Positions 11,212 through 55,318 of a DNA stretch of 59,942 bases are shown here, piece by piece (position 1 is the first letter of the stretch; each line of letters opens with the position of its first letter). The translations under genes and the position numbers were made by a program. A model generated the notes under the pieces. The model was not told the DNA's origin, made no database searches, and saw only the letters and a program-made list of their open reading frames with translations. Origin of the DNA: Minisyncoccota bacterium (GTDB lineage Bacteria; Patescibacteriota; Minisyncoccia; UBA6257; UBA9933); NCBI GenBank assembly GCA_036444215.1, contig JAZGAA010000006.1, positions 1 to 59,942 of the forward strand, given 5' to 3'.

Positions 11212-11215
11212 AATT

Positions 11216-25411: not shown

Positions 25412-25430
25412 TTATTGTTATTTAAGTTAG

Positions 25431-25775
25431 TGGAGATGGGGGTATTGAAACCCCGTCCAAAGATTGTCCAAAAAAATTTCTACAAGCTTAGCCTAATTAG
25501 AATTAAGAATTAAGAAGTATGAATTAAGCAAAACCCTCTTAATCCTTTGCCGAAAGTGTTCTCACTAAAATTGGCAATTTAAGCGAGTAAGCTCAAAATA
25601 TTACACCCAGTTCTTCAACTTGAGCAATTAAAGGTGGATGCTGCTTTAAGCAAAAGCTAAAGCAGGTGCTAATCTGTTTTTTGCAGATATAGTTTAACTC
25701 GGTGATTTGCGAGGTAACGAGTCATCCTCGGCTTGCAATTTTTTTAAAAGATCTCCGTCGAAGCCTTACATCCCC
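25431..25775 (-). ncRNA. ssrA: tmRNA (SsrA), one-piece
   Basis: 5' GGGGATGTAAGGCTTCGACGG pairs with 3' ...GGACGGGGTTTCAATACCCCCATCTCCA, including a G3:U pair. Tag ORF GCAAAAAACAGATTAGCACCTGCTTTAGCTTTTGCTTAA encodes AKNRLAPALAFA* (25646-25684). Lies directly downstream of smpB. Confidence 0.88.
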
Positions 25776-26305: not shown

Positions 26306-27973
26306 ATGAATACAATGGTTAAAGTAAAAATTATTAATTATCTTAAAGAAGTTGTTAAAGAACCTGTGTCAATTGAAGTTTTCGTGCCGGATAATGAAAA
26401 ATTCGGGCATTATTCCACAAATGTCGCTTTGAAATTGGCAAAATTACGCAAGCAGAATTCGATGACTGTTGCTGAAGAGATTAAAAGCGTACTATCACGC
26501 GTAGTAGTAAAAGATTTTTTTAAAAAAATTGAGATTGCTCCTCCGGGATTTATAAATTTCTGGCTGTCAGAAAAAACTCTACAAGATAAAATAAAAGAAA
26601 TTTTGAAGAAAGAAAAGAAATACGGCCAACAACTAAAAGCTAAAAGCTCAAAGCTAAAAGCTATTAGCATTGAATTTATTTCCGCTAATCCTACTGGACC
26701 TTTGACTATTGGCAATGGCAGGGGAGGTTTTTTGGGTGATGCATTGGCAAATATTTTGAAATTTCAAGGAAATAAAGTAGTAAAGGAATATTATATTAAT
26801 GACGCTAAAGCAAGCACTCAGATTAGAGAATTAGGGAAAACGGCGGTTGGAATCGGTAAAAGCTACAAAACAAAAGATTTAGAATTAAAAATCAAAAAAT
26901 TAGGGCCAAAGAAAGCCAAAAATTACAGCGACGCTGGATATTTGCTTGCGAAAATAATCCAAGAAGATAACAAGAAGTTTATTGAAAATAAATTAAAAAT
27001 AAAATTTGACAAATGGTTCAGCGAAGAAAACCTGTATAAAAGTGGAGCTGTTGAAAAGTTGCTGGGAGAATTAAAAAAGAAAAATTTAATTTACAAAAAA
27101 GACGACGCTATATGGTTTAAATCAAAACAATTTGGCGATAACGAAGACAGGGTTTTGGTACGGCAACCCCGCGTAGCGGGGCAAGCAGGAGAACCGACAT
27201 ATTTTTTGCCGGATCTTGCTTATCATTTAAATAAATTCAAAATTCGTAAATTTAACAAAGTTATAGATATTTGGGGAGCTGACCACCATGGTTACAGTCC
27301 TCGGCTTAAAGCCGGTCTTAAAGCTTTTGGTATAGCTGATGAAAAACTCAAAATTATCATTAGCCAATTAGTCCGTTTAATTAAAAAAGGCAAAGAAACG
27401 AAAATGTCAAAAAGAAAAGGAGAGTATGTGAGCTTGGAGGAATTAATAGATGAGGTTGGTTTGGACGCGGCGCGATTTTTCTTTTTAATGTATTCGCCGA
27501 ATACTCATATGGATTTTGATTTGGATTTGGCAAAAGAGAAATCATTAGAGAACCCGGTTTATTATGTGCAATACGCTGCCGTAAGATGCGATAGCATACT
27601 CAAAAAACCCAAATTCCAAAGCCCAAATTCCAAACAAATTCCAAAGCCCAAATTCCAAAACCTAAAATTATTAAACACAAAAGAGGATTTAAATTTAATA
27701 CGGATGTTGGTGAGGTTTCCGGAAATTATTGAAGAAGCAGCGCAAAATTACAGCCCGCAAATTTTAGTGCGATATTCTTTGGATTTAGCGCGGCAATTCC
27801 ATAATTTTTACGAAAAAGAACACATCATCGCGGACCTGCGCGGACTTAACGCGGACCAATACAGACAAAGTATGGATTTTATGTTTGCGCGTTTGGCTTT
27901 AATTCAGGCAACATTAGTAATTTTTAAAAATACATTCAACCTTTTGGGCATCACATTGCCGAAGAAAATGTAG
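26306..27973 (+). CDS. argS: arginyl-tRNA synthetase
   Basis: SANPTGPLTIGNGRG (HIGH region), DHHGY, MSKRKG (KMSK). ATG at 26306 or 26315 preferred over the 26276 start that overlaps smpB. Carries four in-frame repeat insertions. Confidence 0.9.
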   Translation: MNTMVKVKIINYLKEVVKEPVSIEVFVPDNEKFGHYSTNVALKLAKLRKQNSMTVAEEIKSVLSRVVVKDFFKKIEIAPPGFINFWLSEKTLQDKIKEILKKEKKYGQQLKAKSSKLKAISIEFISANPTGPLTIGNGRGGFLGDALANILKFQGNKVVKEYYINDAKASTQIRELGKTAVGIGKSYKTKDLELKIKKLGPKKAKNYSDAGYLLAKIIQEDNKKFIENKLKIKFDKWFSEENLYKSGAVEKLLGELKKKNLIYKKDDAIWFKSKQFGDNEDRVLVRQPRVAGQAGEPTYFLPDLAYHLNKFKIRKFNKVIDIWGADHHGYSPRLKAGLKAFGIADEKLKIIISQLVRLIKKGKETKMSKRKGEYVSLEELIDEVGLDAARFFFLMYSPNTHMDFDLDLAKEKSLENPVYYVQYAAVRCDSILKKPKFQSPNSKQIPKPKFQNLKLLNTKEDLNLIRMLVRFPEIIEEAAQNYSPQILVRYSLDLARQFHNFYEKEHIIADLRGLNADQYRQSMDFMFARLALIQATLVIFKNTFNLLGITLPKKM

Positions 27974-28002: not shown

Positions 28003-31000
28003 ATGGAAGAAAAAATTTTAAAATTTTGGCAGGAAAATCAAATCTTTGAGAAATCCGTTGAGAAAGATGCGCCTCGCGGTGATTTTGTTTTTTATGACGG
28101 TCCGCCTTTTGCCACAGGAAGTCCTCATTACGGCCATATTTTGGCAAGCATTATAAAAGATGTCATTCCAAGATACCAAACAATGAAAGGTAAAAGAGTT
28201 CCGCGTAAATGGGGTTGGGATTGTCATGGTTTGCCAATTGAGAATTTAATTGAGAAAAATCTAAATCTTCAGAGCAAAAAAGACATTGAAGAATACGGAA
28301 TTGAAAAATTCAATAAAGCAGCTCAAGAAAGCGTTCTTCAATACGCTGATGAATGGAAAAAAATTATTTCAAGAATAGGAAGGTGGGTTGATATGGAAAG
28401 AGATTATAGAACAATGGATTGGAAATATACTGAATCGGTTTGGTGGGTTTTTAAAAAACTTTACGATAAAGGGCTTATTTACGAGGGATATAAATCAATG
28501 CATATTTGTCCGCGCTGCGAAACTACTTTATCTAACTTTGAGATTACACAGAATTATCAGGACATTAAAGATATATCAGCTACGGTTAAGTTTGAGCTGG
28601 AAGACGAGCCGGGTACTTTCATTCTGGCTTGGACAACTACGCCATGGACTCTGCTGGGGAACGTCGCTTTAGCTGTTAATCCTGATATAGAGTATAGAAA
28701 AGTTAAATCAGGAGAAAGTTTTTTTATCGTTGCCGAAAAACGATTAGCGGCATTATTTCCATTTAAAGGAGAAACTGTGCTACATAAATTTTTTAAAGGC
28801 AAAGAACTTGTTGGCAAAAAATACAAACCACTTTTTGATTATTACACAAAAGATAAAGATTTAGAGAATCGTGAGAACGGCTGGAAAATTTACAGCGCGG
28901 ATTTCGTAACAATTGAAGAAGGAACTGGCGTTGTTCATATTGCTCCTGCTTTTGGTGAAGATGATATGAATTTGGGGCAAAAAGAAAAATTGCCTTTTAT
29001 TCAGCATGTTGCAATGGATGGAAAATTTAAGAAGGAGGTTAGGGAATTCGTTGGCCTTTCAGTAAAGCCAAAATCTGAACATCAATCAACTGACGTAGAA
29101 ATTATTAAATACCTTGCTAAAAATAATAAACTTTTCTCTAAAGAATCAATAACTCATTCCTACCCGTTTTGCTGGCGGTGTGACACTCCGTTGTTAAATT
29201 ACGCAGCAAACTCATGGTTTGTAGAAGTAGATAAGATTAAAAAGAAACTAATAAAGAATAATAAGAAGATAAATTGGGTGCCATCGCATTTAAAATACGG
29301 TCGTTTTGGTAAATGGCTTGAAAACGCCCGCGACTGGGCTATTTCTCGTTCAAGGTATTGGGGCGCTCCTTTGTCTATTTGGAAATGTGAAGAATGTAAA
29401 AAAATAAAAACAATCGGCTCAATTAACGATTTAAAAAAAGAATCCAAAAAATCCAAAAACAGATATTTTGTAATACGTCATGGAGAATCAGAAAGTAATG
29501 CTCAAAATATTGTTAGTTCAAAATTAGAAACCAGCTCTAAACATCCGCTTACGGAAAAAGGAAAAAAAGAAGTCAAAGAAACAGCTAAAAAATTAAAAAG
29601 CGAAAATATTGATTTGATTTTTTCTTCTGATTTTACTCGTACTAAAGAAACTGCTGAAATTGCGGCAGATAATTTGGGTATTAGTAAGGATAAAATAATT
29701 TTTGATAAACGCCTTCGCGAAGTAAATACCGGCATTTTTGACGGCAAAAAACCTGAAGAATATAAAGCTTATTTTTCCTCTCTTGAAGAAAAATTTTTCA
29801 AAACTCCTCCTGAAGGCGAGAATTTAATGGAACTCAAGAATAGGGTGAGCGAATTTTTGTACGTTCTTGAGAGTAAATATTCAGATAAGAATATTTTAAT
29901 TATTAGCCATGAGTATCCGATTTGGCTTTTATTTGCCGGTGCTAACGGGTTCAATAGCAAAGAGTCAGTTGAAATCAGAAAAGACAAACCCGATTTTGTT
30001 AAAACAGGTGAAATAAGAAAATTAGATTTTGTTCCTTTACCGCATGATAAGAATTATGTTTTAGATTTACACAGGCCGCATATTGATAATATTGAGTTTC
30101 AATGTTCTTGCGGCGGAGCTATGAACCGCGTACCAGAAGTTTTTGACTGCTGGTTTGAGTCCGGTTCAATGCCTTACGGACAGGCGCATTATCCTTTTGA
30201 AAACAAAAAAGAATTTGAGAAAAATTTCCCGGCGGAATTTATTGCAGAAGGAATTGATCAAACAAGGGGTTGGTTTTATACATTACTTGTTCTTTCAACT
30301 GCTTTATTTAATAAACCAGCTTATAAAAACGTAATTGCGAATGGAATTATTTTGGCGGAAGATGGTCAAAAAATGAGTAAGCGTTTAAATAATTATCCGG
30401 ATCCAACAGAAATTATTAATAAATATGGAGCTGATGCGCTTCGTTATTATCTTCTTTCTTCACCGGCAGTGCGTGGCGAGAGTTTGAATTTTTCCGAAAA
30501 AGGAGTTGATGAAATTAATAAAAAAGTGGTTTCAAAATTAAGAAATGTTTTATCTTTTTATAAGATGTATGGTTTGGGACTAAAAACCGAAAACCAAAAA
30601 CTAAAAGCTAATAATGTTTTAGATAAATGGATTTTAGCGAAATTTAATATTTTAACAAAAGACGTTTCAGAAACACTTGATAATTATGAGTTAGACAGGG
30701 CAGTTAGGCCGATAGGGAATTTTGTTGATGATTTGTCTAATTGGTATGTGAGGCGGTCGCGAGAAAGGTTTAAGAGCGAAAGCCAAGATAAAGATAACGC
30801 TTCTGCGACGTTGAGTTATATTTTAATTGGGTTTTCTAAAATAATCGCGCCATTTATGCCGTTTGTTGCGGAGGAAATATACCAGGAATTTACAATAGAG
30901 AAAGGGAGCGTGCATTTAGAAGAGTGGCCTCAAGGCAAAGAAACATTAAAAGAAGACAAAAAGATTTTAGATGAAATGAAAGAGGCAAGAGAAAATATCG

Positions 31001-31449
31001 TATCTATTGCTATGGAGCAAAGGCAAAAAGCGGACATTGGAGTGAGGCAAGTGCTAAGCGTTTTTAATACAACATCTTCTATTACAAATACTGATATTCT
31101 CGAAACTGTTTTAAAAGAAATTAACGTAAAAGAAATAAAAACTAACCAAAAAGAAAATAAATTAGACATAATTATTACCCCTGAATTAAAAAATGAAGGC
31201 GTTGTTCGCGAATTTGTCCGCAAAGTTCAGGATTTGCGCAAAAAAGCCGGCTATCAACCAAAAGACAAAATTTATTTATGGATTGAAACCTTAAGCGAGA
31301 CAGAAAGCATATTAAACAAGAACATTGATAAATTCAAAAAAGATATTGGCGCTAAATCTATTGAGTTTAGGCGAACTGAAAAATTTGACGCAGAATTAGA
31401 AAGTAAAATTAACAGCGAAAAAATCTGGCTCGGAATTAAGAAAATATAA
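28003..31449 (+). CDS. ileS: isoleucyl-tRNA synthetase (type 2/eukaryote-like) with an inserted histidine-phosphatase domain
   Basis: PPFATGSPHYGH (HIGH), editing-domain WTTTPWTL, GIDQTRGWFYTL, KMSKRL. Residues ~485-685 carry RHGES...SSDFTRTKETA...ISHE histidine-phosphatase motifs. Confidence 0.92.
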   Translation: MEEKILKFWQENQIFEKSVEKDAPRGDFVFYDGPPFATGSPHYGHILASIIKDVIPRYQTMKGKRVPRKWGWDCHGLPIENLIEKNLNLQSKKDIEEYGIEKFNKAAQESVLQYADEWKKIISRIGRWVDMERDYRTMDWKYTESVWWVFKKLYDKGLIYEGYKSMHICPRCETTLSNFEITQNYQDIKDISATVKFELEDEPGTFILAWTTTPWTLLGNVALAVNPDIEYRKVKSGESFFIVAEKRLAALFPFKGETVLHKFFKGKELVGKKYKPLFDYYTKDKDLENRENGWKIYSADFVTIEEGTGVVHIAPAFGEDDMNLGQKEKLPFIQHVAMDGKFKKEVREFVGLSVKPKSEHQSTDVEIIKYLAKNNKLFSKESITHSYPFCWRCDTPLLNYAANSWFVEVDKIKKKLIKNNKKINWVPSHLKYGRFGKWLENARDWAISRSRYWGAPLSIWKCEECKKIKTIGSINDLKKESKKSKNRYFVIRHGESESNAQNIVSSKLETSSKHPLTEKGKKEVKETAKKLKSENIDLIFSSDFTRTKETAEIAADNLGISKDKIIFDKRLREVNTGIFDGKKPEEYKAYFSSLEEKFFKTPPEGENLMELKNRVSEFLYVLESKYSDKNILIISHEYPIWLLFAGANGFNSKESVEIRKDKPDFVKTGEIRKLDFVPLPHDKNYVLDLHRPHIDNIEFQCSCGGAMNRVPEVFDCWFESGSMPYGQAHYPFENKKEFEKNFPAEFIAEGIDQTRGWFYTLLVLSTALFNKPAYKNVIANGIILAEDGQKMSKRLNNYPDPTEIINKYGADALRYYLLSSPAVRGESLNFSEKGVDEINKKVVSKLRNVLSFYKMYGLGLKTENQKLKANNVLDKWILAKFNILTKDVSETLDNYELDRAVRPIGNFVDDLSNWYVRRSRERFKSESQDKDNASATLSYILIGFSKIIAPFMPFVAEEIYQEFTIEKGSVHLEEWPQGKETLKEDKKILDEMKEARENIVSIAMEQRQKADIGVRQVLSVFNTTSSITNTDILETVLKEINVKEIKTNQKENKLDIIITPELKNEGVVREFVRKVQDLRKKAGYQPKDKIYLWIETLSETESILNKNIDKFKKDIGAKSIEFRRTEKFDAELESKINSEKIWLGIKKI

Positions 31450-33693: not shown

Positions 33694-36095
33694 AGCCTTT
33701 TATCAAAAAATTTGAAGAAGTGAGTATGAAGAATGTTTCCGAGGTGGGCGGGAAGAACGCTTCGCTTGGCGAAATGATTCAGAATTTAGTTCCTAAAGGA
33801 ATTAATATTCCAAGCGGTTATGTTATTACGGCCAGCGCTTATCGTTATTTTCTTCAGAAAACCGATTTAAAAAAATTTATTAAGAAAACTATACAAGGAT
33901 TAGATACAAGAAATCTTCACGATTTGGCTAGGTGTGGAAAACTTATCCGCGAAGCAATTAAACAATCCGAATTTCCAAAGGATTTAACAAGAGCGATTAT
34001 TACTGCTCATCGCAGGGCTGAAAAGAAATACGGCAAGAATGCTGATTTTGCGGTTCGTTCCAGCGCCACGGCCGAGGATATGCCTGGAGCCAGTTTTGCT
34101 GGGCAGATGGAAACTTATCTAAACGTTCGCGGCGAGGAAAATATCTTAAAAGCCGTGCGAGCAGCCATGGCTTCTCTTTTTACTAATCGTGCTATTTCTT
34201 ATAGAAAGGATAAAGGATTTGACCACTTTAAGGTGGCGCTTTCAGTTGGCGTTCAGAAAATGGTGCGTTCGGATTTAAGCTGTTCAGGTGTTTTGTTTAC
34301 TTTAGATACAGAATCCGGTTTTCCTGATTTGGTTTTAATTAACGGTTCTTGGGGATTGGGCGAGATGATTGTTCAGGGCGAAGTAACTCCGGACGAATTT
34401 TTGGTTTTTAAAAAGACAGGCGCGATTATCGGCAAAGAGCTTGGAATGAAAAGGAGAAAGATGATTTACGGCAAAGGGAATAAGCCAACCAAAGTTATTT
34501 CTACCTCACAAAAAGAAAGAGAATCATTTATTTTATCTGATAATGAAATTTCGCAACTGGCCAAATGGGGAATGTTGGTTGAAGAGCATTATTCAAAGAG
34601 AAATAAAGGCAAGTGGACTCCGATGGATTTAGAATGGGCAAAAGACGGAAAAACCAAAGAGATGTTTGTTGTTCAGGCTCGCCCAGAGACAGTCCATGCT
34701 TTGCGGGATTTTTCAAAAATTAAGGAGTATAAGTTGGTAAGCACTAAACCTAATACCATAAACCCTAAACCCATCGTCATCGGCGCCTCTGTTGGCAGTA
34801 AAATTGCCGTTGGTAAGGCAAGGGTTATTTTAGATACAAAGAAGATTAAAGAATTTAAAGCAGGAGAAGTTTTAGTTACCGGTATGACAGATCCTGATTG
34901 GGAGCCGATAATGAAAATTGCTTCAGCAATTGTAACGGATAAAGGAGGTCGGACAAGTCACGCCGCAATAGTAAGTCGTGAACTCGGCATTCCCTGTATT
35001 GTTGGTTCGGAAACCGCCACTAAAAAAATTAAAACTGGCCAGACAATTACCGTTGATACTACCGGCAGTGATGGGTTTGTTTATGATGGCGCTTTGAAAT
35101 TTAAAATAACAGAACACAATGTTAAAAAAATACCAAAACCAAAGACAAAAATAATGATGAATATTGCCACACCAGAAACAGCTTTTGAAAAATCATTTTT
35201 ACCCAATGAAGGCGTAGGGTTGGCAAGAGAGGAATTTATTATTGCCAGCGATATTGGTATTCACCCAATGGCAATTATTGAATACCAAAAACTTAAAAAT
35301 TCAAAGCTAAAAGCACAAATAAATAAAAAAACTATTGGATGGAAAGATAAAAAGCAATTTTACATTGATAAACTCGCTTTTGGGATTGCGAAAATCGCAG
35401 CAGCTTTTTATCCTAAGCAGGTAATTGTTCGCTTTTCTGATTTTAAGACAAACGAATATCGTTCGCTGGTTGGTGGTGAAATTTACGAGCCAGTTGAAGA
35501 AAATCCAATGCTTGGTTGGAGAGGAGCTTCCAGATATTATCACCCTAATTTTGCGCCGGCATTTGTCTTAGAGGTTAAAGCAATTAAAAAAGTCCGTGAA
35601 AATATGGGATTAGATAATGTGGAAGTAATGATTCCATTTTGTAGGACAGTTGAAGAAGGTAAAAAGGTTTTGCAAATAATGGCAAAAAACGGACTAAAAA
35701 CTAAAAGCTCAAAGCTAAAAACTTACGTGATGTGCGAGATTCCTTCTAATGTGGTTTTAGCTGACGAATTTTTGAAAGTTTTTGATGGAATGAGTATTGG
35801 CTCAAACGATTTAACGCAATTAACCGTAGGAATTGACCGCGATGGCAATGAGCAAATCCGCAGTATTACTAATGAGAAAGACGAATCAGTTAAAAAACTA
35901 ATTGCAGAAGTTATTAAAAAATGCCTCGCTAAAAAGAAATATATCGGAATTTGCGGTCAGGCTCCATCCGACTTTCCGGAATTCGCTGAATTTTTGGTTG
36001 AGCACGGAATTGAAAGCATTTCCTTGAATCCAGACACAGTAGTTAAAACAACTCAAAAGATTTACCAAAAAGAGAAGAAATTACGAAAGAAATAG
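33690..36095 (+). CDS. ppsA: phosphoenolpyruvate synthase (pyruvate, water dikinase)
   Basis: VGGKNASLGEM, RSSATAEDMPGASFAGQ, phosphohistidine GGRTSHAAIVSRELGIP, C-terminal PEP-utilising IGSNDLTQ. Confidence 0.93.
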   Translation: MKPFIKKFEEVSMKNVSEVGGKNASLGEMIQNLVPKGINIPSGYVITASAYRYFLQKTDLKKFIKKTIQGLDTRNLHDLARCGKLIREAIKQSEFPKDLTRAIITAHRRAEKKYGKNADFAVRSSATAEDMPGASFAGQMETYLNVRGEENILKAVRAAMASLFTNRAISYRKDKGFDHFKVALSVGVQKMVRSDLSCSGVLFTLDTESGFPDLVLINGSWGLGEMIVQGEVTPDEFLVFKKTGAIIGKELGMKRRKMIYGKGNKPTKVISTSQKERESFILSDNEISQLAKWGMLVEEHYSKRNKGKWTPMDLEWAKDGKTKEMFVVQARPETVHALRDFSKIKEYKLVSTKPNTINPKPIVIGASVGSKIAVGKARVILDTKKIKEFKAGEVLVTGMTDPDWEPIMKIASAIVTDKGGRTSHAAIVSRELGIPCIVGSETATKKIKTGQTITVDTTGSDGFVYDGALKFKITEHNVKKIPKPKTKIMMNIATPETAFEKSFLPNEGVGLAREEFIIASDIGIHPMAIIEYQKLKNSKLKAQINKKTIGWKDKKQFYIDKLAFGIAKIAAAFYPKQVIVRFSDFKTNEYRSLVGGEIYEPVEENPMLGWRGASRYYHPNFAPAFVLEVKAIKKVRENMGLDNVEVMIPFCRTVEEGKKVLQIMAKNGLKTKSSKLKTYVMCEIPSNVVLADEFLKVFDGMSIGSNDLTQLTVGIDRDGNEQIRSITNEKDESVKKLIAEVIKKCLAKKKYIGICGQAPSDFPEFAEFLVEHGIESISLNPDTVVKTTQKIYQKEKKLRKK

Positions 36096-38269: not shown

Positions 38270-38341
38270 AGCGGATAACGGGAGTCGAACCCGTGTCTTC
38301 AGGTTGGAAACCTGACATAATAACCACTATACGATACCCGC
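38270..38341 (-). tRNA. tRNA-Gly(TCC)
   Basis: Acceptor GCGGGTA/TATCCGC, anticodon loop TTTCCAA, T-arm ACGGG-TTCGACT-CCCGT. Confidence 0.85.
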
Positions 38342-38462
38342 GTTCGCAATAATCCTATCTTACTGCCTTTTCTTGATTTTTTCAATATTTATGTTAGATT
38401 AAAATTGTCCGTATTCGATAATCATTCGATTTAATTCGTTTTTAATTAGAGCGAAAAACGCT

Positions 38463-39074
38463 ATGATAAGCAATTTTTATTTCAAAATTCCACGTCGATT
38501 AAGAATTTTTATTATTTTTATCTTAGTGGTTTTAGCTGCTTATTTAATTGCTCGAATTTTTTTTGTTGAGTTCAAAACCGTTCCCAATGATTTTTTAAGA
38601 GCCCGCCAAGAAGCATCTTTGATTGCTAAGGATATTGTTGGGCTTTCTAATGAGTCGGCCGGGAATCTTGATAAGATTTATGAATTTGATAAAGATGGTA
38701 ATTATACTGAAGCATTAAATTTATTAGCCAGCGAACTTGAACGTAATCGCCAAGCGCGAGAAAAAGCCATTAAGCTTTCGGCTCAACTTGAAAAAATGGC
38801 AAGAGCGGTGCCGGAAATTTCTCCAGCCTCAGCCAGCCAGTCAGCAATTCAGGCAATAAGTTCGGAAACCGCTTTAATTAGCCATTTGATTGCTTATAAT
38901 GATTATCTTTTCCAACTTTTAGAAGTTCTGCGTTCAAAATTTCTTGGGAAAACAAAAAATTCCAGCGAGCGCATTTCAGAATTAATAAATAAAATTAATG
39001 AAGAGGTACAGGCAATAAACGAATTGGATAGGAAATTTAACGAAATAATGGAAGGGTTTGATGAACAGTTTTAG
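38463..39074 (+). CDS. hypothetical membrane-anchored protein
   Basis: 203 aa with an N-terminal TM helix and a helical remainder. Confidence 0.45.
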   Translation: MISNFYFKIPRRLRIFIIFILVVLAAYLIARIFFVEFKTVPNDFLRARQEASLIAKDIVGLSNESAGNLDKIYEFDKDGNYTEALNLLASELERNRQAREKAIKLSAQLEKMARAVPEISPASASQSAIQAISSETALISHLIAYNDYLFQLLEVLRSKFLGKTKNSSERISELINKINEEVQAINELDRKFNEIMEGFDEQF

Positions 39075-39119
39075 CTTTGTCGGGCTTTTGCCCGACGAAG
39101 CGGGCTTCGTCCAGCGAAG

Positions 39120-39192
39120 TCGGGGCACCCGGACTCGAACCGGGAATCGTCCGCTCCCAAAGCGGAAATGTTAGCCATTACACCATGCCCCG
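39120..39192 (-). tRNA. tRNA-Pro(TGG)
   Basis: Acceptor CGGGGCA/TGCCCCG, anticodon loop TTTGGGA, T-arm CCCGG-TTCGAGT-CCGGG. Confidence 0.85.
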
Positions 39193-39242
39193 TACTATTT
39201 CTTATTTATTATCTTTATTATTGAATTTTTATCAAGGGCTTT

Positions 39243-39314
39243 GTCCCTGTAGTTCAACGGATAGAACGGCTCCCTTCTAAGGAGCAAATGAGGGTTCGAT
39301 TCCTTCCGGGGATA
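39243..39314 (+). tRNA. tRNA-Arg(TCT)
   Basis: D-arm GTTC-AACGGATA-GAAC, anticodon stem GCTCC/GGAGC with loop CTTCTAA, T-loop TTCGATT. Confidence 0.8.
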
Positions 39315-39351
39315 CAAAAAGAGGCGAATAATTATAGATAGAAAAACATAA

Positions 39352-39711
39352 ATGAAAAAGACCTGGGGTAAACATTTAATTATTGACGTTTATGGAATTA
39401 AGAAAGAAAAATTGGAAGACAGGAAAGCTATTAAAAAATTACTCTTGGGGTTGCCGATGGAGTTTAAAATGAGGCCGCTTCGCCAGCCAGTTGTGGCTAA
39501 AGTGTCTTCTGATAAATATCATGATTGGGGCGTATCCGGTTTTGTTATGCTTTACGAAAGCCATATTTCTTTGCATACTTGGCCAAGTGATGGTTATTTA
39601 GCAATGGATATTTATTCTTGCAAGGATTTTAATGATAAGGAAATAGTTAAGTATTTGAAAAAATATTGGAGTTGTGAAAAGATTAAAGTGAAAACAATTA
39701 CAAGAGGATAA
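39352..39711 (+). CDS. speD: S-adenosylmethionine decarboxylase proenzyme (small pyruvoyl type)
   Basis: GKHLIIDVYG and self-cleavage/active-site motif YESHISLHTWP. Confidence 0.85.
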   Translation: MKKTWGKHLIIDVYGIKKEKLEDRKAIKKLLLGLPMEFKMRPLRQPVVAKVSSDKYHDWGVSGFVMLYESHISLHTWPSDGYLAMDIYSCKDFNDKEIVKYLKKYWSCEKIKVKTITRG

Positions 39712-39730
39712 AGAATTGGAAAATTAATAA

Positions 39731-39802
39731 GCCGCGGTAGCTCAGTGGTGGAGCGGAAGCTTGAAGAGCTTCGCGTCGGGTGTTCGATTCACCCCCGCGG
39801 CA
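39731..39802 (+). tRNA. tRNA-Phe(GAA)
   Basis: Acceptor GCCGCGG/CCGCGGC, D-arm GCTC-AGTGGTG-GAGC, anticodon loop TTGAAGA. Confidence 0.88.
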
Positions 39803-39811
39803 CAAGTTTAT

Positions 39812-39886
39812 GGAGGTATTAGTGTAACAGTAGCACTGCAATCTGTGGCATTGCCAGTGGGAGTGCAAGTCTCCTATACCTCCCCA
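39812..39886 (+). tRNA. tRNA-His(GTG) with encoded G-1 and CCA
   Basis: G-1 plus acceptor GAGGTAT/ATACCTC, discriminator C, anticodon loop CTGTGGC, encoded CCA. Unusual T-loop TGCAAGT and a D-loop without GG. Confidence 0.7.
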
Positions 39887-43081: not shown

Positions 43082-43917
43082 TAATAATACAGATATGAAA
43101 ATGTTGATGAAAATATCCGGCGGCTGAAAAACGGCGAATTTTCTATGTTCGCAATTTCAGTCCGCTAAACAGCGGATTTTTTGTTTTCTGAATGGATAGT
43201 TTTTTGACAAATACGTGAATCGCTCGAATTTCAAACAAATGATAACGAATTTCAAACGAATATTTTTATTCGTTTTACATTCATTTTAATTCGTTAATTA
43301 TTTGGGCGAAAGACGCGTTATAAAACAATTATTCGAGTCCTCGAATCCTAAATATGGATTTAAGAGACAAAATTTTTTTAAGGGCGTATGGTGGATGCCT
43401 TGACATCAAATGACGATGAAGGACGTGGCGTGGCTGCGATAAGCTTCGGGGAGGTGCTTAGCAACTTTTGATCCGGAGATTTCCGAATGGGGAAACCTAA
43501 TTACGTAAACCGTAATTGGCTCTATTTTTAAAAATAGAGCAGTATATCCGCTGAAGTGAAACATCTCAGTAAGCGGAAGAAAAGAGAAAAATTTTTATTC
43601 CCTAAGTAGCGGCGAGTGAAAAGGGAGGAGCCCAAACCGAGCACATAATTTTTTATATGCTCGGGGTTGTAAGAATTTCACGCTACTTTATTAATCACAG
43701 AGTTCCACCTTTAAGGGATTCTGTGATTTATGAAGAAAGGAAAGGTTATAAAATTATTTGTTAGCTGAACCTGCTGGAAAGCAGGACCAGAGGAGGTGAT
43801 AGTCCTGTAGGCGAAAACGAATAATCCTTTTAGTGGATTATCTTGAGTACCTCGATGACAGAATACTTCGAGGGAATCATCCGGCACTATCCGGAAAGGC
43901 TAAATACATTTGATGAT

Positions 43918-43956
<39 letters not shown>

Positions 43957-44126
43957 GGCCGGCGAGGCCGTTGAAATAGAACCTGAAACCATATGCTTAC
44001 AAGGAGACGGAGCCCGCAAGGGTGACGTCGTGCCTATTGAAGAATGAGCCAACGAGTTTATGTATATCGCTAGTTTAAATCCTACGGGATGAAAGCGTAG
44101 GGAAACCGAGTGTTAAAAGCGCGTAT

Positions 44127-44295
44127 GCCAGTGCTTCGCACTGGAAATTCCAAATTCCAAATCTCAAATCACAAATAAATCTCAAATCCCAATTTTCAAA
44201 ATTCCAAACACGTTTTGGTCATTTGAATTTTGGTTATTGATGCTTGTTTGTTATTTGGTGCTTGTTATTTGGTGCTTCCAATGCGCAGTATTGGT
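44127..44295 (+). repeat. 169-nt hairpin insertion at the 23S helix-25 position (IVS-like), copy A
   Basis: Interrupts ...GAGTGTTAAAAGCGCGTAT | TGGCGGTATGTGTAAGACCCGAA. Terminal mini-hairpins gccagtgcttcgcactgg and ccaatgcgcagtattgg. A/C-rich arm faces a G/T-rich arm. Confidence 0.85.
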
Positions 44296-44810
44296 TGGCG
44301 GTATGTGTAAGACCCGAAGCCAAGCGAGCTTGCCCTGGCCAGGATGAACTTCGACGAAAGTCTAAGGGAGGTCCGCACCAGTAGATCGTTCAAAATCTTT
44401 GGATGAGCTGGGGTAAGAAGTGAAAAGCTAATCGAGCTTGGTAATAGCTGGTTCTCTCCGAAATAGTTTTAGGACTAGCGTTTAGAAAAAACCTTTATGG
44501 GGTAGAGCTACTGGTTGAGAAGTAAAGGGGGAAACCTCGGCTTTTCAGTCAAACTCCGAATACATAAAGGATTGTCTAAGCAGTTAGACCATGGGGGCTA
44601 AGCTCCATTGGTCAAAAGGGAAACAGCCCTGATCGTCGTCTAAGGTCCCTAAATATTTGCTAAGTGTTAAAAAGGTAGTAATTCGCCATAGACAGATAGG
44701 AGGTTGGCTTAGAGGTAGCCATCCTTTAAAAAGTGTGTAACAACTTACTATTCGATGGCGGGTTGCGCCGAAAATTTAGCGGGGCTAAGCAAATTACCGA
44801 AGACACGAAT

Positions 44811-44979
44811 GCCAGTGCTTCGCACTGGAAATTCCAAATTCCAAATCTCAAATCACAAATAAATCTCAAATCCCAATTTTCAAAATTCCAAACACGTTTT
44901 GGTCATTTGAATTTTGGTCATTGGTGCTTATTTGTTATTTGGTGCTTGTGATTTGGTGCTTCCAATGCGCAGCATTGGT
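44811..44979 (+). repeat. 169-nt hairpin insertion at the 23S helix-45 position (IVS-like), copy B
   Basis: Interrupts ...GGGGCTAAGCAAATTACCGAAGACACGAAT | GTGGTAGGAGAGC. Differs from copy A at about five positions, all in the 3' arm. Confidence 0.85.
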
Positions 44980-45731
44980 GTGGTAGGAGAGCATTTCAAT
45001 CGCGCTGAAGTGCGACCCGCGAGGGCGCATGGAGCGTTTGGAAGAGAAAATGTTGGTATGAGTAACCGCAAAGCCGACGAGAAGTCGGCTCCCCGAAAAT
45101 CCAAGGTTTCCTCCGCAACGGAAATCGACGGAGGGTTAGGCGATCCTAAGGCAATGGCGAAAGCCGGAGCCGATGGACAGCTGGTTAATATTCCAGCCCG
45201 CCGGGCATAGTTCGATGGAGTGACGGAGAAAAAAAGATTAAGCATCTTAATGGTTTGGTGTTATTGGTTATTAGAATTGCTGTTTAGGTAAATCCGGACA
45301 GCTGCTTTAAATGGCGGGATTCGCAAACCGATAAAACTTCAGTTCGCTGAAGAATTTAATTGAAGAGTCTTCCGAGAAAAACTTCTAAGATTTCCTATGT
45401 TCGGCTTCGTACCGGAAACCGACACAGGTGGATGAGGCGAGGAGCCTCAGGGGAACGAGTGAGTCCTCGTTAAGGAACTCGGCAAAAAAGCGGGTGTAAC
45501 TTCGGGATAAACCCTGCCGCCTAAGTTTTTGTTTTACAAAAATTTTGGCGGCCGCAGCGAAAGTATCCCTGGCGACTGTTTACCAAAAACACAGCTCCCT
45601 GCGAACTCGTAAGAGGATGTATAGGGGGTGACGCCTGACCGATGCGAGAAGGTTAACGGCGGCGGTTTTTTTAAAAGCAATTTTGAGAAAGCTGACTGCC
45701 CGAAGCCCTCGTCAATGTCAGCGATAACTAT

Positions 45732-45997
45732 AAGTAACGATTGTAGTTGTAAAATTTGGCTATATGCTGGAAAGCCCTTAGGGCTGATAAAACCAAAACA
45801 GTAATCTGAAAAGATAAGCTGACGGTTTAAAAATTTATCAGATTGGGTAATCAGCAGGAAAGACTCCTAAGGTAAATCTAAGGAGAATCCTCAGAGACTA
45901 TACGCCAAATCTTATTAAAAATAAGAATGATATAGTCCGAACTCTATGGCGACATAGAGAGTTGTCTAAATTAAACTAGACAGAATAACACATAATG
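45732..45997 (+). mobile_element. group I intron in 23S at E. coli-equivalent position L1917 (H69 loop), ORF-less
   Basis: Exon junction ...GATAACTAT | AATCGTTCTAAGGTAGCG restores the H69 context. 5' exon ends in T and the intron ends in G. Core motifs TATATGCTGGAAA, AATCAGCAGGAAA, CCTCAGAGACTATACG, GATATAGTCCGAAC. Confidence 0.8.
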
Positions 45998-46336
45998 AAT
46001 CGTTCTAAGGTAGCGCATTTCCTTTCCAGGTAAGTTCTGGAGCGCACGAAAGGCGTAACGACTGGGGAACTGTCTCAACGAGGAGCTCGGTGAAAATGCA
46101 ATTCCCGTGAAGATGCGGGATACCTGCAGCAAGACGAAAAGACCCCGGGAGCTTTACTGTAGCTTGATATTGGTTTTAGGGTTTTAATGCGTAGCGTAGT
46201 GGGGAGGCTTTGAAACTTTACTTTCGGGTAGAGTGGAGCCGCCAATGAAACACCCATCTTTAAAATTTTAAAATCTAATCTGAACGGCAAAAACGTTCGG
46301 AGACAGTGTCTGGCGGGCAGTTTATATGGGGCGTAT

Positions 46337-46662
46337 TCCTTAATGTAATTTGCACCTCCGTGCAATTACGAGGGGGACCTATTGCCGTGAGGCGATACGG
46401 AAAAACTATCTATATGCTGGAACATCCGCGAGTATCTTGGAGTACTTGTTCTAAATATTATTAAAGGACAGTAAAAATCTTTCAAGTGATGCGGACAATC
46501 AGCAGGAAACCAAATTCAATATATTGAGAGTGGGATCCTCAGAGACTACACGATAGCAACTTTTTATAAAAAAGAGTTGATAATATAGTCCGAACTGCGT
46601 AGCGATGCGCAGAGGATTGCATTATTAGTAATGTAATCTACCTAATAAAAATATAAATTAGG
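46337..46662 (+). mobile_element. group I intron in 23S just 3' of the H80 P-loop hairpin, ORF-less; paralog of the L1917 intron
   Basis: Interrupts ATATGGGGCGTAT | ...GCCTAAAAAGTAACGGAGGAG. Same core motifs as the L1917 intron (TATATGCTGGAAC, AATCAGCAGGAAA, CCTCAGAGACTACACG, AATATAGTCCGAAC). Boundaries +/-10 nt. Confidence 0.7.
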
Positions 46663-46861
46663 TTAACATTTTGCCTAAAAAGTAACGGAGGAGTTTATTA
46701 AGGTTGGCTTAGCCCGGATGGAAATCGGGCTGGACGCGTAAAGGCAAAAGCCAGCTTAACGGCAAGGCTGACAAGCCGCGCCGGTGCGAAAGCAGAACTT
46801 AGTGACCCGACGGTTCTTTATAGAAAGGCCGGAGACAACGGATAAAAGCTACCCCGGGGAT

Positions 46862-47141
46862 GAAGCCTGAAATAAGGCTTTGTTGTCCTCCTCGCAGTAA
46901 TGCGAGGTAATAAATGCGACTTATAACGGTGGAATCAAAACTGGTCTTTCCCAGAAATGGGTTTTAGAGTTTTGACAATACCGTGGGAAGTCGCTCGTCC
47001 AAAAAAATGGGCGAGTTGACCCTGTAACGACTTAATCCAAGAGGATTGGATGGTAGTTTTTAAACTATCATAATACGTCGCGCCCACTGAGATTTTATTT
47101 TAGTGGGAAAAGATATAGTCTAATACATTAAAAATGTATCG
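46862..47141 (+). mobile_element. group I intron in 23S at L2449, ORF-less, different subtype
   Basis: Exons ...CCCCGGGGAT | AACAGGCTGG are exactly contiguous in E. coli (GGGGAU|AACAGG). Intron ends in G. P7-like AGATATAGTC. Confidence 0.8.
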
Positions 47142-47253
47142 AACAGGCTGGTGAAGTCCGAGAGTTCACATCGACGACTTCGCTCGGCACCTCGATGTCG
47201 GCTCACCACATCCCGGGGGTGGAGAAGCTCCCAAGGGTTTGGCTGTTCGCCAA

Positions 47254-47297
<44 letters not shown>

Positions 47298-47626
47298 TGG
47301 TCTCTATCTGCTGTAGGCGTTGACGCTTGAGGGAAGTTGACCCTTGTACGAGAGGATCAGGTTGAACGAACCTCTGGTCTACCGGCTTTGCCACCAGGTG
47401 AAGTGCCGGGTAGCTATGTTCGGAAGGGATAAGCACTGAAAGCATCTAAGTACGAAGCCCCTCCCAAGATTAAGCGTCTTAGATTCCTGGAAGACTACCA
47501 GGTAAATAGGCTTTAGGTGTAAGCGCAGTAATGCGTTTAGCCGAGAAGTACTAATAAATCGTATTTTTTTATCTCTAAATTCATTTTAGGGTTCGAGGAG
47601 TCGAATAATTGTGTTAAATTTATTTT

Positions 47627-47732
47627 TGCCGGTGTTTTACTCAAATATGAACCACCTCTTTCCATTCCGAACAGAGAAGTGAAAATATTTGAGCCCGATG
47701 ATACTTTAAAGGGAAAGTAGGGTACGCCGGCA
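47627..47732 (+). rRNA. rrf: 5S rRNA
   Basis: GCCGGTG...CCATTCCGAACAGAGAAGTGAAA...GTAGGGTACGCCGGC; terminal helix pairs. Confidence 0.88.
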
Positions 47733-47776
47733 TTTTTTATTTGTGAATAACTGAAGTTTTGCTATAATAAAATTTA

Positions 47777-55207: not shown

Positions 55208-55318
55208 AAGCACCAAATTCCAAGCACCAAATAACAAATAAGTACCAAATTCTAAATTCAAAACGTGTTTCGATCATTGGATATTATTTGTAATTTGGAA
55301 TTTGTGATTTGGGATTTT
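55208..55318. repeat. third, inverted and more diverged copy of the 23S IVS-type hairpin element
   Basis: gcaccaaattccaagcaccaaataacaaataagtaccaa... is the reverse complement of the G/T-rich IVS arm (ttggtgcttatttgttatttggtgcttg...). The right arm matches the complement of the A/C-rich arm. Confidence 0.75.

What the first reader, a model, noticed from the sequence alone, without database searches (positions are those of the whole stretch)
44127..44979. Two near-identical 169-nt hairpin elements inserted at the helix-25 and helix-45 positions of 23S rRNA
By hand alignment to E. coli 23S, the inserts at 44127-44295 and 44811-44979 replace the tips of helix 25 (about position 545) and helix 45 (about position 1170). 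In Salmonella, Yersinia, Campylobacter, Leptospira and Coxiella these are the classic sites of intervening sequences. RNase III excises those sequences without religation, which fragments the 23S rRNA.

What is unusual here:
- Both sites carry the same element, with about five substitutions, all in the 3' arm.
- The element has terminal inverted mini-hairpins (gccagtgcttcgcactgg ... ccaatgcgcagYattgg), like MITE TIRs.
- Its arms are built from the same AAATTCCAAA words found in protein-coding inserts and in an inverted intergenic copy at 55208-55318.

This implies recent transposition or gene conversion of a mobile hairpin into two rRNA helices.
Basis: partly seen in the sequence, partly recalled or inferred. 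Interest (0 to 1): 0.65.

Follow-up and report, generated by a model that had tools for sequence, protein, structure and literature searches.

The report
Conserved hairpin inserts in CPR stable RNAs
The two near-identical 169-nt hairpins in this 23S rRNA gene are real and belong to a seemingly undescribed family, with almost invariant ends, that sits in the 23S, 16S and RNase P RNA genes of many ultra-small (CPR/Patescibacteria) bacteria, is copied between sites within a genome, and is probably cut out of the RNA.

Summary
Windows 44127-44295 and 44811-44979 are 169-nt hairpins with 5 differences, all in the 3' arm.

One location is wrong. Copy 2 replaces helix 45. Copy 1 is not in helix 25, which is intact at 44006-44029. 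It lies in the junction just 3' of the intact helix-31 hairpin (E. coli ~652).

The 5' end (GCCAGTGCTTCGCACTGGAAAT) occurs exactly in 12 GTDB genomes and 28 metagenome contigs. Eleven of the 12 genomes carry CPR or unclassified labels. Each hit is a full hairpin in sense orientation inside 23S (at least 8 sites), 16S h6 or RNase P RNA (P9, P12, P13/14), and never elsewhere.

Arms are 84-97% identical between sites of one genome, but about 55% identical at the same site between genomes. A closer relative (L043) has the orthologous H45 element and an unrelated insert at the other site, so copy 1 is a recent paralogue of the H45 copy.

Sense RNA folds better than antisense in 34 of 37 elements. 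The terminal mini-hairpins covary, and solo-hairpin footprints exist.

Excision by RNase III, which would fragment the RNAs, is the best-supported mechanism, but it is inferred and not shown. The "coding insert" link is not supported.

The parts
43366..47575 (+). 23S rRNA gene (4210 nt) that hosts both elements. It also carries two Rfam-called group I introns and a third structured insert. 5S follows at 47627-47733. No 16S in the window.
   Evidence: Rfam LSU_rRNA_bacteria, 2170 bits, model 1-2925
44127..44295 (+). Element copy 1 (169 nt), in the junction 3' of helix 31 (E. coli ~652). This is the derived, secondary copy.
44128..44144 (+). Copy 1, 5' terminal palindrome CCAGTGC-TTC-GCACTGG. 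It is preceded by G44127, which pairs with U44295.
44145..44277 (+). Copy 1 arms. The 5' arm is A/C-rich and built of heptamer-like words, the loop lies near 44208-44214, and the 3' arm is G/U-rich.
44278..44294 (+). Copy 1, 3' terminal palindrome CCAATGC-GCA-GTATTGG (G.U in the RNA).
44811..44979 (+). Element copy 2 (169 nt), replacing helix 45 (E. coli 1164-1184). This is the ancestral location, orthologous to the L043 H45 element.
44812..44828 (+). Copy 2, 5' terminal palindrome.
44962..44978 (+). Copy 2, 3' terminal palindrome CCAATGC-GCA-GCATTGG.
44006..44029 (+). Helix 25: an intact short hairpin GACGGAGCCC-GCAA-GGGUGACGUC. This is an EMPTY site in this genome; it is occupied by family members in L011, L023, L032, L040 and L015.
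44108..44123 (+). Helix 31 hairpin, intact, immediately upstream of copy 1.
43321..43352 (+). 5' strand of the 23S processing stem. It pairs with 47585-47616 (32 nt, 91% complementary), a typical RNase III substrate.
   Evidence: I4
47585..47616 (+). 3' strand of the 23S processing stem.
   Evidence: I4
55208..55318 (+). Core-only relative of the element. It is inverted, has no terminal palindromes, and is inserted in the recO 5' leader downstream of a conserved promoter-like site. Present in L043, absent in L046.

Best explanation
The two inserts are members of a widespread, ORF-less, palindromic insertion-element family of CPR/Patescibacteria that lives specifically in genes for stable structured RNAs: 23S, 16S and RNase P RNA.

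Anatomy. An element has a G, then a 17-nt self-complementary 5' terminus (CCAGUGC-UUC-GCACUGG) followed by AAAU. Next come an A/C-rich arm of heptamer-like words, a small loop and a complementary G/U-rich arm. It ends with CUU, a 17-nt self-complementary 3' terminus (CCARYGC-GNA-GCRYUGG) and a closing pyrimidine. It sits at the tip of, or beside, surface helices, always in the sense orientation.

History in this window (shown). The helix-45 copy is ancestral and orthologous in relative L043. The copy in the junction 3' of helix 31 was made from it recently, by a DNA-level copy or conversion event. It displaced whatever occupied that hot-spot site. The five later substitutions are silent or nearly so for the RNA fold.

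Mechanism (inferred). The element is transcribed as part of the precursor. It folds either into one rod, whose base is a ~20-bp near-perfect duplex of the two termini, or into an AU-rich rod flanked by two GC-rich mini-hairpins. The rod is removed by a double-strand-specific endonuclease, most likely RNase III, which CPR genomes retain, without religation. This would leave the 23S in pieces of about 0.76, 0.52 and 1.7 kb. The mini-hairpins may remain as exonuclease-resistant caps on the new ends.

Within a genome the arms are kept alike by repeated copying or gene conversion. Loss occurs by deletion between the two similar termini and leaves a solo mini-hairpin.
For: Family and host range:
- The exact 22-mer occurs in 12 GTDB genomes (Saccharibacteria, Kaiserbacteria, Terrybacteria, Nealsonbacteria, Patescibacteria and others) and 28 metagenome contigs.
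- Every hit is a complete hairpin with the conserved 3' end.
- Hosts verified by Rfam are LSU, SSU and RNaseP_bact_a. Sites are H45, H25, H63, H98, H68, Ec277, Ec652, the 23S leader, 16S h6, and RNase P P9, P12 and P13/14.
- All are in sense orientation. CM scores are ~20 bits higher on the sense strand.

RNA-level constraint:
- The sense fold is more stable than the antisense fold in 34/37 elements, mean -6.45 kcal/mol, Wilcoxon p = 2e-6.
- Terminal hairpins are 99.4% paired, with 28 compensatory cells against 10.3 expected, 0/500 shuffles.
- The inter-terminal duplex is 93% paired. It includes the G1-Y closing pair and one compensatory UUC/GGA to UAC/GUA change.
- The two conformers differ by only 5-7 kcal/mol.
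- The five differences between the window copies: A-U/G.U, G.U/A-U and G.U/G-C keep a pair, one lies in an internal loop, and one is G.U against an unpaired U-U, which L043 polarises as a pair lost in copy 1.

Mobility and turnover:
- Arm identity is 0.84-0.97 between different sites of one contig in 7 of 8 pairs, including 16S against 23S. It averages 0.55 at the same site in different contigs (n = 67).
- Among relatives the junction site holds three or four unrelated occupants.
- L014 has the full element and L017 a solo palindrome, with identical flanks.
- Empty sites show normal short hairpins.

Excision plausibility:
- The 23S is flanked by a 32-bp processing stem.
- CPR genomes retain rnc, RNase J and PNPase (PMC12641178).
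- Brown et al., as cited in PMC11270868, report that CPR rRNA insertions are removed from transcripts.
- Short ORF-less CPR insertions were presumed to be RNase III IVSs (PMC11270868).
Against: - No RNA data were available. Excision, the cleaving enzyme, the cut sites and the fate of the mini-hairpins are all inferred.
- RNase III normally needs little sequence specificity. It does not by itself explain why the termini are nearly invariant across deeply divergent phyla.
- The 5' end looks invariant partly because the search required an exact 22-mer.
- The elements are not independent samples, so the p-values for the sense/antisense and covariation tests are optimistic.
- No target-site duplication, transposase or other mobility factor was found, so the copying mechanism is unknown.
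- One exact-match host MAG (L006) is labelled Gammaproteobacteria, so restriction to CPR is not strictly shown.
- Fragmented RNase P RNA has, to my knowledge, no natural bacterial precedent.
Confidence: 0.6

Rival explanations
1. Retained expansion segments. The rods are not excised. They stay in the mature ribosome and RNase P as long protruding helices, like eukaryotic expansion segments, with a structural or binding role. The genome-specific arms would match a genome-specific partner.
For: - From my own knowledge, most of the 23S sites coincide with regions that carry eukaryotic expansion segments (H25, H31, H45, H63, H98, Ec~270).
- Arms are homogenised within genomes even between elements with different termini (L049). 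This could reflect a common trans-acting partner.
- Lui et al. describe 'large extensions of helices' in CPR RNase P RNAs without invoking cleavage (PMC8172020).
Against: - Arms evolve very fast in sequence and length (96-188 nt) and are replaced wholesale between close relatives. That is unlike functional rRNA.
- A solo-hairpin derivative and empty sites are tolerated.
- The conserved part is exactly the base of the rod, as expected for a processing signal.
- CPR insertions are reported to be removed from transcripts (cited in PMC11270868).
Confidence: 0.2
2. Ordinary DNA-level MITE. A non-autonomous transposon with TIRs is mobilised in trans by a transposase. It has no RNA-level role, and it is seen in stable-RNA genes only because insertions elsewhere are purged.
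For: - 17-nt terminal inverted repeats.
- Multiple near-identical copies per genome.
- Presence/absence polymorphism.
- A core-only relative sits in an mRNA leader.
Against: - No target-site duplication.
- All 40 exact-match hits, plus the secondary copies, lie in stable-RNA genes, which make up well under 1% of a CPR genome. None lie in intergenic DNA.
- Orientation is 100% sense, and sense-specific G.U pairing is seen.
- The palindromes covary, which indicates a folded strand rather than a fixed protein-binding sequence.
- No transposase with matching ends was seen, and there is no copy in IMG/VR.
Confidence: 0.12
3. Assembly artefact. The second copy is a repeat-induced misassembly or duplicated read pile-up.
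For: Family members often lie near contig ends, so the repeats do disturb assemblies. L018 shows an odd break at the copy-1 site.
Against: - The copies differ at 5 positions and have different, correctly continuous rRNA flanks on both sides.
- The same architecture recurs in independent assemblies from many projects.
- L043 independently has the H45 element.
Confidence: 0.02
4. RNA-level mobility. The hairpin integrates into exposed RNA loops, for example by reverse cleavage/ligation, and is fixed in DNA by reverse transcription and recombination.
For: Exclusive residence at exposed loops and junctions of abundant structured RNAs, in sense orientation.
Against: No ribozyme core matches: there are no Rfam hits beyond generic hairpin models far below threshold. 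No reverse transcriptase is associated, and the model has no precedent. The core-only copy in the recO leader is inverted relative to its transcript.
Confidence: 0.04

Closest known systems
RNase III-excised intervening sequences (IVS) of 23S rRNA (Salmonella, Yersinia, Campylobacter, Leptospira, Coxiella; helices 25 and 45)
   Same: An extra self-complementary stem-loop replaces a helix tip in 23S. H45 (window copy 2) and H25 (other family members) are used. Distribution is sporadic and suggests horizontal spread. The bacteria are mostly reduced-genome organisms with a single rRNA copy. The presumed outcome is fragmented rRNA without religation.
   Different: - This family has nearly invariant, self-palindromic termini across phyla.
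- It occupies many more sites: H31 junction, H63, H68, H98, Ec277 and the 23S leader.
- It also occurs in 16S rRNA and in RNase P RNA.
- Its arms are heptamer-repeat rods homogenised within a genome.
- Excision has not been shown.
Short uncharacterised 'insertion sequences' in CPR rRNA genes (Brown et al. 2015; Tsurumaki et al. 2024, PMC11270868)
   Same: These are almost certainly the same objects. They are <200-250 bp, ORF-less and not introns, and are concentrated at 23IS2/23IS4 (H25/H45). They make up 64 of 66 insertions in Saccharibacteria.
   Different: [quoted passage not shown] I found no description of the conserved termini, the family relationship across sites, the RNase P RNA hosts, the concerted evolution within genomes or the solo-hairpin footprints. 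The motif string occurs in no searchable paper.
Correia/NEMIS elements of Neisseria (MITEs whose transcribed TIR hairpins are cut by RNase III)
   Same: Small, ORF-less elements with inverted-repeat ends that fold into a long hairpin when transcribed and become an RNase III substrate (from my own knowledge).
   Different: Correia elements make a TA target duplication, are mostly intergenic or in mRNA, and occur in both orientations. None of this is seen here.
REP/REPIN elements mobilised by RAYT (IS200/IS605-like Y1 transposases)
   Same: Short palindromic units pair up in inverted orientation to form a longer hairpin. Hairpin structure is conserved by covariation. There is no target duplication.
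   Different: REPs are extragenic and high-copy and carry a 5' GTAG. No such motif, extragenic copies or RAYT gene were seen here.
Rickettsia palindromic elements (RPE)
   Same: Palindromic selfish elements in reduced genomes that can sit inside functional genes, including RNA genes.
   Different: RPEs are known mainly for in-frame insertion into protein genes. The supposed coding inserts here are not insertions.

Membership tests
Classical RNase III-type 23S IVS | Located at the tip of helix 25 or helix 45 of 23S rRNA | tested here: inconclusive
   Copy 2: met (H45). Copy 1: not met, because it lies in the junction 3' of H31. Other family members occupy H25 and many non-classical sites.
Classical RNase III-type 23S IVS | Ends of the insert pair to form an extended double-stranded stem | tested here: met
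   The MFE structure is a rod with a ~20-bp basal duplex. 93% of cells are paired across 34 elements.
Classical RNase III-type 23S IVS | Absent from mature rRNA, so the 23S is fragmented and not religated | not testable with these tools
   No RNA-seq or gel data. Predicted pieces are 761, 515 and ~1717 nt.
Classical RNase III-type 23S IVS | Cleavage depends on RNase III | not testable with these tools
   Indirect evidence only. CPR genomes keep rnc (PMC12641178), and a 32-bp processing stem flanks this 23S.
MITE (non-autonomous DNA transposon) | Terminal inverted repeats | tested here: met
   The 17-nt termini match in inverted orientation at 14/17.
MITE (non-autonomous DNA transposon) | Target-site duplication flanking the element | tested here: not met
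   37 unique elements share no flank duplication. Only a G...Y closing pair is present.
MITE (non-autonomous DNA transposon) | Copies dispersed through the genome in both orientations, mostly intergenic | tested here: not met
   All 40 exact-match hits and all secondary copies are in stable-RNA genes or the leader, in sense orientation. Complete genomes were not available.
MITE (non-autonomous DNA transposon) | A parent autonomous element with the same ends | not tested
   None was seen in the loci. No whole-genome search was possible.
Group I / group II intron | Ribozyme core recognisable by covariance model | tested here: not met
   The only Rfam hits on the element are generic miRNA-precursor hairpin models far below threshold. 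The true group I introns of this gene are elsewhere.
REP/REPIN-RAYT | Conserved 5' GTAG next to the palindrome, with extragenic location | tested here: not met
   The termini start G-CCAGTGC and the elements are intragenic in RNA genes.
CPR conserved-termini hairpin family (defined here) | 5' G+CCAGTGC-NNN-GCACTGG+AAAT, A/C-rich arm, loop, G/T-rich arm, then CTT+CCARYGC-GNA-GCRYTGG+Y; sense orientation in a stable-RNA gene | tested here: met
   Both window copies match all parts with 0 mismatches in the 5' end and 0-1 in the 3' end.

The most novel reading that the evidence does not exclude
The elements could be a previously unrecognised class of mobile hairpin specific to stable RNAs.
- A dedicated mechanism that targets structure would place them at exposed loops and junctions of rRNA and RNase P RNA.
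- Their rods would be excised from the precursors.
- Their covarying GC-rich terminal mini-hairpins would stay behind as caps that protect the new RNA ends.

If so, many CPR bacteria routinely run translation and tRNA processing on programmed, multi-fragment 23S, 16S and RNase P RNAs. The genome-specific arm sequences would be maintained by a copying process or by a trans-acting partner.
Probability: 0.3. Interest if true: 0.85.

Novelty: new variant of a known kind. Interest (0 to 1): 0.72.

Why it matters
CPR/Patescibacteria are a large fraction of bacterial diversity, and their rRNA genes are riddled with insertions. The intron-type insertions have been studied. The short ORF-less ones, which are the majority in Saccharibacteria, have been left as 'uncharacterised, probably IVS'.

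This analysis shows that many of them are one family with a recognisable signature. The family spans 23S, 16S and RNase P RNA, and it turns over quickly and homogenises within genomes. That has several uses:
- It gives a concrete sequence handle for annotation. It explains why RNase P RNA and rRNA models score poorly in CPR genomes, and why assemblies break at these repeats.
- It predicts fragment sizes for rRNA and a possibly fragmented RNase P RNA. Both can be tested in cultivated Saccharibacteria.
- It raises a well-posed question about how a hairpin element is targeted to, or retained only in, stable structured RNAs.

Tried and rejected
- Orienting elements by arm composition failed. The reverse complement of an AC-arm/GT-arm hairpin has the same layout. 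I used the asymmetric terminal loops instead.
- A covariance model of the termini, with the arms skipped as a local end (R1), found short-armed members at 51-61 bits. It could not span long arms such as the window copies. It found no convincing extra copy in the window: the best other hit was 18799-18828, E = 0.03, inside an ORF.
- An Rfam E-value search on the element gave only generic long-hairpin (plant miRNA precursor) models far below their gathering scores.
- IMG/VR viral contigs contain no exact match, so there is no evidence for a phage vector.
- 'In-frame coding inserts' built from the same words are rejected. ArgRS is +6 aa in a variable linker, and the glycerate-kinase-like protein has no insertion.
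- L018 as a split 23S gene: there is no leader/trailer processing stem, and Rfam forces a global alignment. This is unresolved and could be a chimeric contig.
- I looked for a target-site duplication and for a conserved target motif upstream of the elements. Neither was found.
- Literature searches for the motif string, for CPR RNase P insertions and for Saccharibacteria rRNA fragmentation found no description. Brown et al. 2015 is not held in the library.
Full report
**1. What is in the window**

Rfam calls a bacterial 23S rRNA at 43366-47575. It is 4210 nt against a 2925-position model. A 5S rRNA follows at 47627-47733, and there is no 16S in the window. The gene carries two group I introns (45659-45959 and 46348-46612) and several other insertions.

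They differ at five positions, all in the 3' half (positions). Each folds into one long imperfect rod (-67 and -64.9 kcal/mol, z = -6.1 and -5.3).

The 'terminal mini-hairpins' are 17-nt palindromes, CCAGTGC-TTC-GCACTGG and CCAATGC-GCA-GYATTGG. They are also inverted repeats of one another, matching at 14 of 17 positions. In the minimum-energy fold they pair with each other to form the base of the rod.

**2. Where the inserts sit**

The Rfam alignment and a MAFFT alignment to E. coli rrlH agree that copy 2 replaces helix 45, E. coli 1164-1184.

Copy 1 is not in helix 25. Helix 25 (E. coli 533-560) is an intact short hairpin at 44006-44029. Copy 1 lies about 100 nt further on, at E. coli ~652.

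The local CM alignment formally opens the helix-31 loop. However, the helix-31 hairpin is intact at 44108-44123, with a compensatory C-G to G-C change relative to E. coli. Three other CPR 23S genes (L009, L043, L049) have insertions at exactly the same point, after ...GCGCGU(AU). So the insert is in the junction just 3' of helix 31.

If both elements were excised and the three intron-like inserts spliced, the pieces would be 761, 515 and about 1717 nt.

**3. The element is one member of a large family**

The first 22 nt of the element (GCCAGTGCTTCGCACTGGAAAT) occur exactly in two collections:
- 12 contigs of the one-genome-per-species GTDB collection. The labels include Saccharibacteria, Kaiserbacteria, Terrybacteria, Nealsonbacteria, 'Patescibacteria group' and unclassified bacteria. 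One MAG (L006) is labelled Gammaproteobacteria.
- 28 JGI metagenome contigs.

There are none in IMG/VR.

Every hit has the same anatomy:
- the conserved 5' end;
- an A/C-rich arm of heptamer-like words, of very variable length (whole elements are 96-188 nt);
- a small loop;
- a complementary G/T-rich arm;
- a conserved 3' end, CTT-CCARYGC-GNA-GCRYTGG, followed by C or T.

Rfam and the flanking sequences show that all of them lie inside stable-RNA genes and in the sense orientation:
- 23S rRNA: helices 45 (8 unique elements), 25 (6), 63 (3), 98 (2), the E. coli ~277 hairpin (2), 68 (1), the junction after helix 31 (the window), and the 5' leader (1).
- 16S rRNA: helix 6 (2).
- RNase P RNA: the P13/14 arm (6), P12 (3) and P9 (2).

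Where a site is empty, a normal short hairpin is present. Where it is occupied, the element sits in place of the loop or tip, and its first G pairs with its last pyrimidine (GC 15, GU 15 of 34). There is no target-site duplication.

Other loci carry related elements with different terminal mini-hairpins, such as CCGTGC...GCACGG, CCGTTGC...GCAACGG and CCACTTC...GAAGTGG. The exact-match set is therefore one subfamily of a broader group.

**4. Evidence that the transcript matters**

- The sense-strand RNA folds more stably than the antisense RNA in 34 of 37 unique elements (mean difference -6.45 kcal/mol, Wilcoxon p = 2e-6). This is expected if G.U pairs are tolerated on the transcribed strand only. 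The elements are related by descent, so this p-value is optimistic.
- The 3' terminal palindrome shows real compensatory change. A-U/U-A switches to G-C/C-G at two adjacent pairs, plus rarer variants. That gives 28 double-change cells against 10.3 expected, with 0 of 500 shuffles reaching the observed value.
- The alternative structure, in which the two termini pair with each other, is also 93% paired. It includes one compensatory change in the 'loop' triplets, UUC/GGA to UAC/GUA.
- For the window copies the two conformers differ by only 5-7 kcal/mol.
- None of the five differences between the window copies leaves the rod badly disrupted in either copy. Three switch between Watson-Crick and wobble pairs, one lies in an internal loop, and one is G.U in copy 2 against an unpaired U-U in copy 1. 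Polarised by L043 (section 6), that last one is a pair lost in copy 1.

**5. Evidence for DNA-level dynamics**

With the termini removed, arms were compared within and between contigs:

| Comparison | Arm identity |
|---|---|
| Different sites of one contig | 0.84-0.97 in 7 of 8 pairs |
| Same site, different contigs (n = 67) | mean 0.55 |
| Different site, different contigs (n = 590) | mean 0.53 |

The within-contig pairs are the window (0.97), L040 16S h6 against 23S H25 (0.92), and L023 H25/H63/H68 (0.84-0.92).

Two closely related RNase P RNAs differ by presence and absence. At the P13/14 site L014 has a full 188-nt element. With identical flanks, L017 has only a single 17-nt palindrome. 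This is the product expected from deletion between the two similar termini. Another solo palindrome sits elsewhere in the L006 RNase P RNA.

**6. History of the two window copies**

I used the gene just downstream of the 5S as a synteny handle. This retrieved closer relatives with the same gene order.
- L043 has an orthologous element of the same length in helix 45. Its arm identity is 0.94 to copy 2 and 0.92 to copy 1.
- At the junction after helix 31, L043 has an unrelated 267-nt hairpin insert. L049 has a third type there.

Both window copies share about five substitutions relative to L043. At four of the five positions where the window copies differ, L043 agrees with copy 2.

So helix 45 is the ancestral location. 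Copy 1 was generated from the window lineage's own helix-45 element after the split from L043. It landed in a hot-spot site whose occupant turns over.

**7. The other claims**

- The word AAATTCCAAA is enriched in the window, 14 occurrences against 1.6 expected.
- The hairpin at 55208-55318 is a true relative. The loop and one arm are about 90% identical over 36 nt. It is inverted and lacks both terminal palindromes. It lies between a conserved promoter-like site and the recO start codon. It is present at the same place in L043 and absent in L046. It is therefore an insertion in an mRNA leader.
- The 'protein-coding inserts' are not supported. The ArgRS segment is 6 aa longer than a solved homologue, in a variable linker. 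The glycerate-kinase-like segment is not an insertion at all.

**8. Mechanism**

Shown:
- the anatomy, the host range and the sense orientation;
- RNA-compatible substitution patterns;
- homogenisation within genomes;
- gain, loss and replacement among relatives.

Inferred:
- The rod is removed from the precursor by a double-strand-specific nuclease, most plausibly RNase III.

Support for the inference is indirect:
- This 23S has a 32-bp flanking processing stem.
- CPR genomes keep rnc, RNase J and PNPase while losing many other biogenesis factors (PMC12641178).
- Brown et al., as cited by Tsurumaki et al., report that CPR rRNA insertions are removed from transcripts.
- Tsurumaki et al. presumed the short ORF-less insertions to be RNase III IVSs.

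A speculative extension concerns the ends. The covarying GC-rich mini-hairpins may remain on the new 3' and 5' ends as caps against PNPase and RNase J. That would explain why both the local hairpins and the inter-terminal duplex show signs of selection.

How the element is copied, and why it is found only in stable-RNA genes, is unknown. No transposase, target duplication or viral copy was found.

**9. Comparison with what is known**

The closest known objects are:
- the classical RNase III-excised IVSs of proteobacterial and spirochaete 23S rRNA;
- the 'short uncharacterised insertion sequences' noted in CPR rRNA genes (PMC11270868);
- as functional analogues, MITEs whose transcripts are cut by RNase III (Correia/NEMIS) and REPIN-type hairpins.

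Lui et al. noted 'large extensions of helices' in CPR RNase P RNAs (PMC8172020) but did not connect them with rRNA insertions. The terminal motif occurs in no paper of the searchable library.

I therefore rate this as a new variant of a known kind. It is an IVS-like palindromic element family with four distinctive traits:
- a conserved signature;
- a host range that includes 16S and RNase P RNA;
- concerted evolution within genomes;
- solo-hairpin footprints.

The main caveat is that the literature search is limited to open-access text. Brown et al. 2015 could not be read.

**10. Verdict**

One of the two site assignments and the coding-insert link are wrong. The interpretation as a recently copied, IVS-like mobile hairpin is supported. 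The finding opens onto a CPR-wide phenomenon that appears to be undescribed and is directly testable with RNA data from cultivated Saccharibacteria.

Noticed in passing
L018:1-4687 (sense strand = minus); break at L018 plus-strand ~4454: L018 is the closest 23S relative among the motif hits (85% identity). Its 23S sequence starts abruptly at AGACCCGAA (E. coli ~668), exactly at the site of window copy 1. It is preceded by an AT-rich spacer and a divergent ORF instead of the 5' third of 23S. This could be a split 23S gene or a chimeric contig. No leader/trailer stem was found.
   Followed up: partly
L014:2089-2276 versus L017:52-70 (RNase P RNA, P13/14 site): These are closely related RNase P RNAs. 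One has a full 188-nt element. The other has only a solitary 17-nt terminal palindrome with identical flanks, which looks like a deletion footprint. L006 has another solo CCAGUGC-UUA-GCACUGG hairpin at 4283-4305.
   Followed up: partly
L049:875-3246: One 23S gene carries hairpin elements at five sites (Ec277, H25, H31 junction, H45, H63) with at least three different kinds of terminal mini-hairpin. Four of them nevertheless share the same genome-specific arm words (TTAGAAA / AATTTTT). So the arms are homogenised independently of the termini.
   Followed up: partly
window 55208-55318; L043:~17090-17250; L046:~11200-11310: A core-only hairpin related to the rRNA element is inserted between a conserved promoter-like TTGTCAA...TGTGGATAAGTATAAT and the recO start codon. 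It is present in the window and in L043 (where it has a nested extra insert) and absent in L046.
   Followed up: yes
window 28003-31449 (+); L046:4174-6924: The isoleucyl-tRNA-synthetase-like ORF (1148 aa) has a complete histidine-phosphatase (His_Phos_1) domain at aa 489-654, inserted inside the class I catalytic domain. A class I synthetase in relative L046 also carries His_Phos_1.
   Followed up: no
window 46862-47141: A 280-nt strongly structured insertion (z = -7.5) lies at E. coli position ~2449 of the 23S. Rfam does not call it as an intron. It is probably a third, divergent group I intron.
   Followed up: partly
window 43642-43746: About 105 nt of extra sequence relative to E. coli lies after position ~277 of the 23S (domain I). 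It is not a member of the hairpin family. The adjacent Ec277 hairpin is a family site in L035, L038 and L049.
   Followed up: no
L043:5120-8498 versus window 45659-47141: The relative's 23S introns encode three LAGLIDADG homing endonucleases (one LAGLIDADG_1 and two LAGLIDADG_2). The window's 23S has no ORF of 80 aa or more called in that region on the sense strand, so its intron-like inserts appear to be ORF-less.
   Followed up: no
L018:3104-3236 and 3875-4015: A second hairpin-insert family, with termini CGTGCCTCGCTGC...GAGGCACG, occurs twice in the same 23S gene. Similar ends are seen in the L009/L021 H45 inserts.
   Followed up: no
window 7134-7164, 26618-26662, 30579-30609, 35285-35315, 35693-35723: A second A-rich repeat family (ACTAAAAGCTAAAAGCT-like) recurs inside several ORFs, including ArgRS, IleRS and PEP-utilising enzyme. 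It is probably lysine-rich low-complexity linkers.
   Followed up: no
window 25428-25775; 38270-39883: The tmRNA is of normal length with no hairpin insert. A cluster of tRNA genes lies upstream of the unlinked 23S-5S pair. The 16S is not adjacent, consistent with the reports of non-operonic rRNA genes in CPR (PMC8172020).
   Followed up: no
L006 (CAZHUO010000010.1): A MAG labelled 'uncultured Gammaproteobacteria' carries an exact-match element in the P12 of its RNase P RNA. Either the bin or label is wrong, or the family reaches outside CPR.
   Followed up: no
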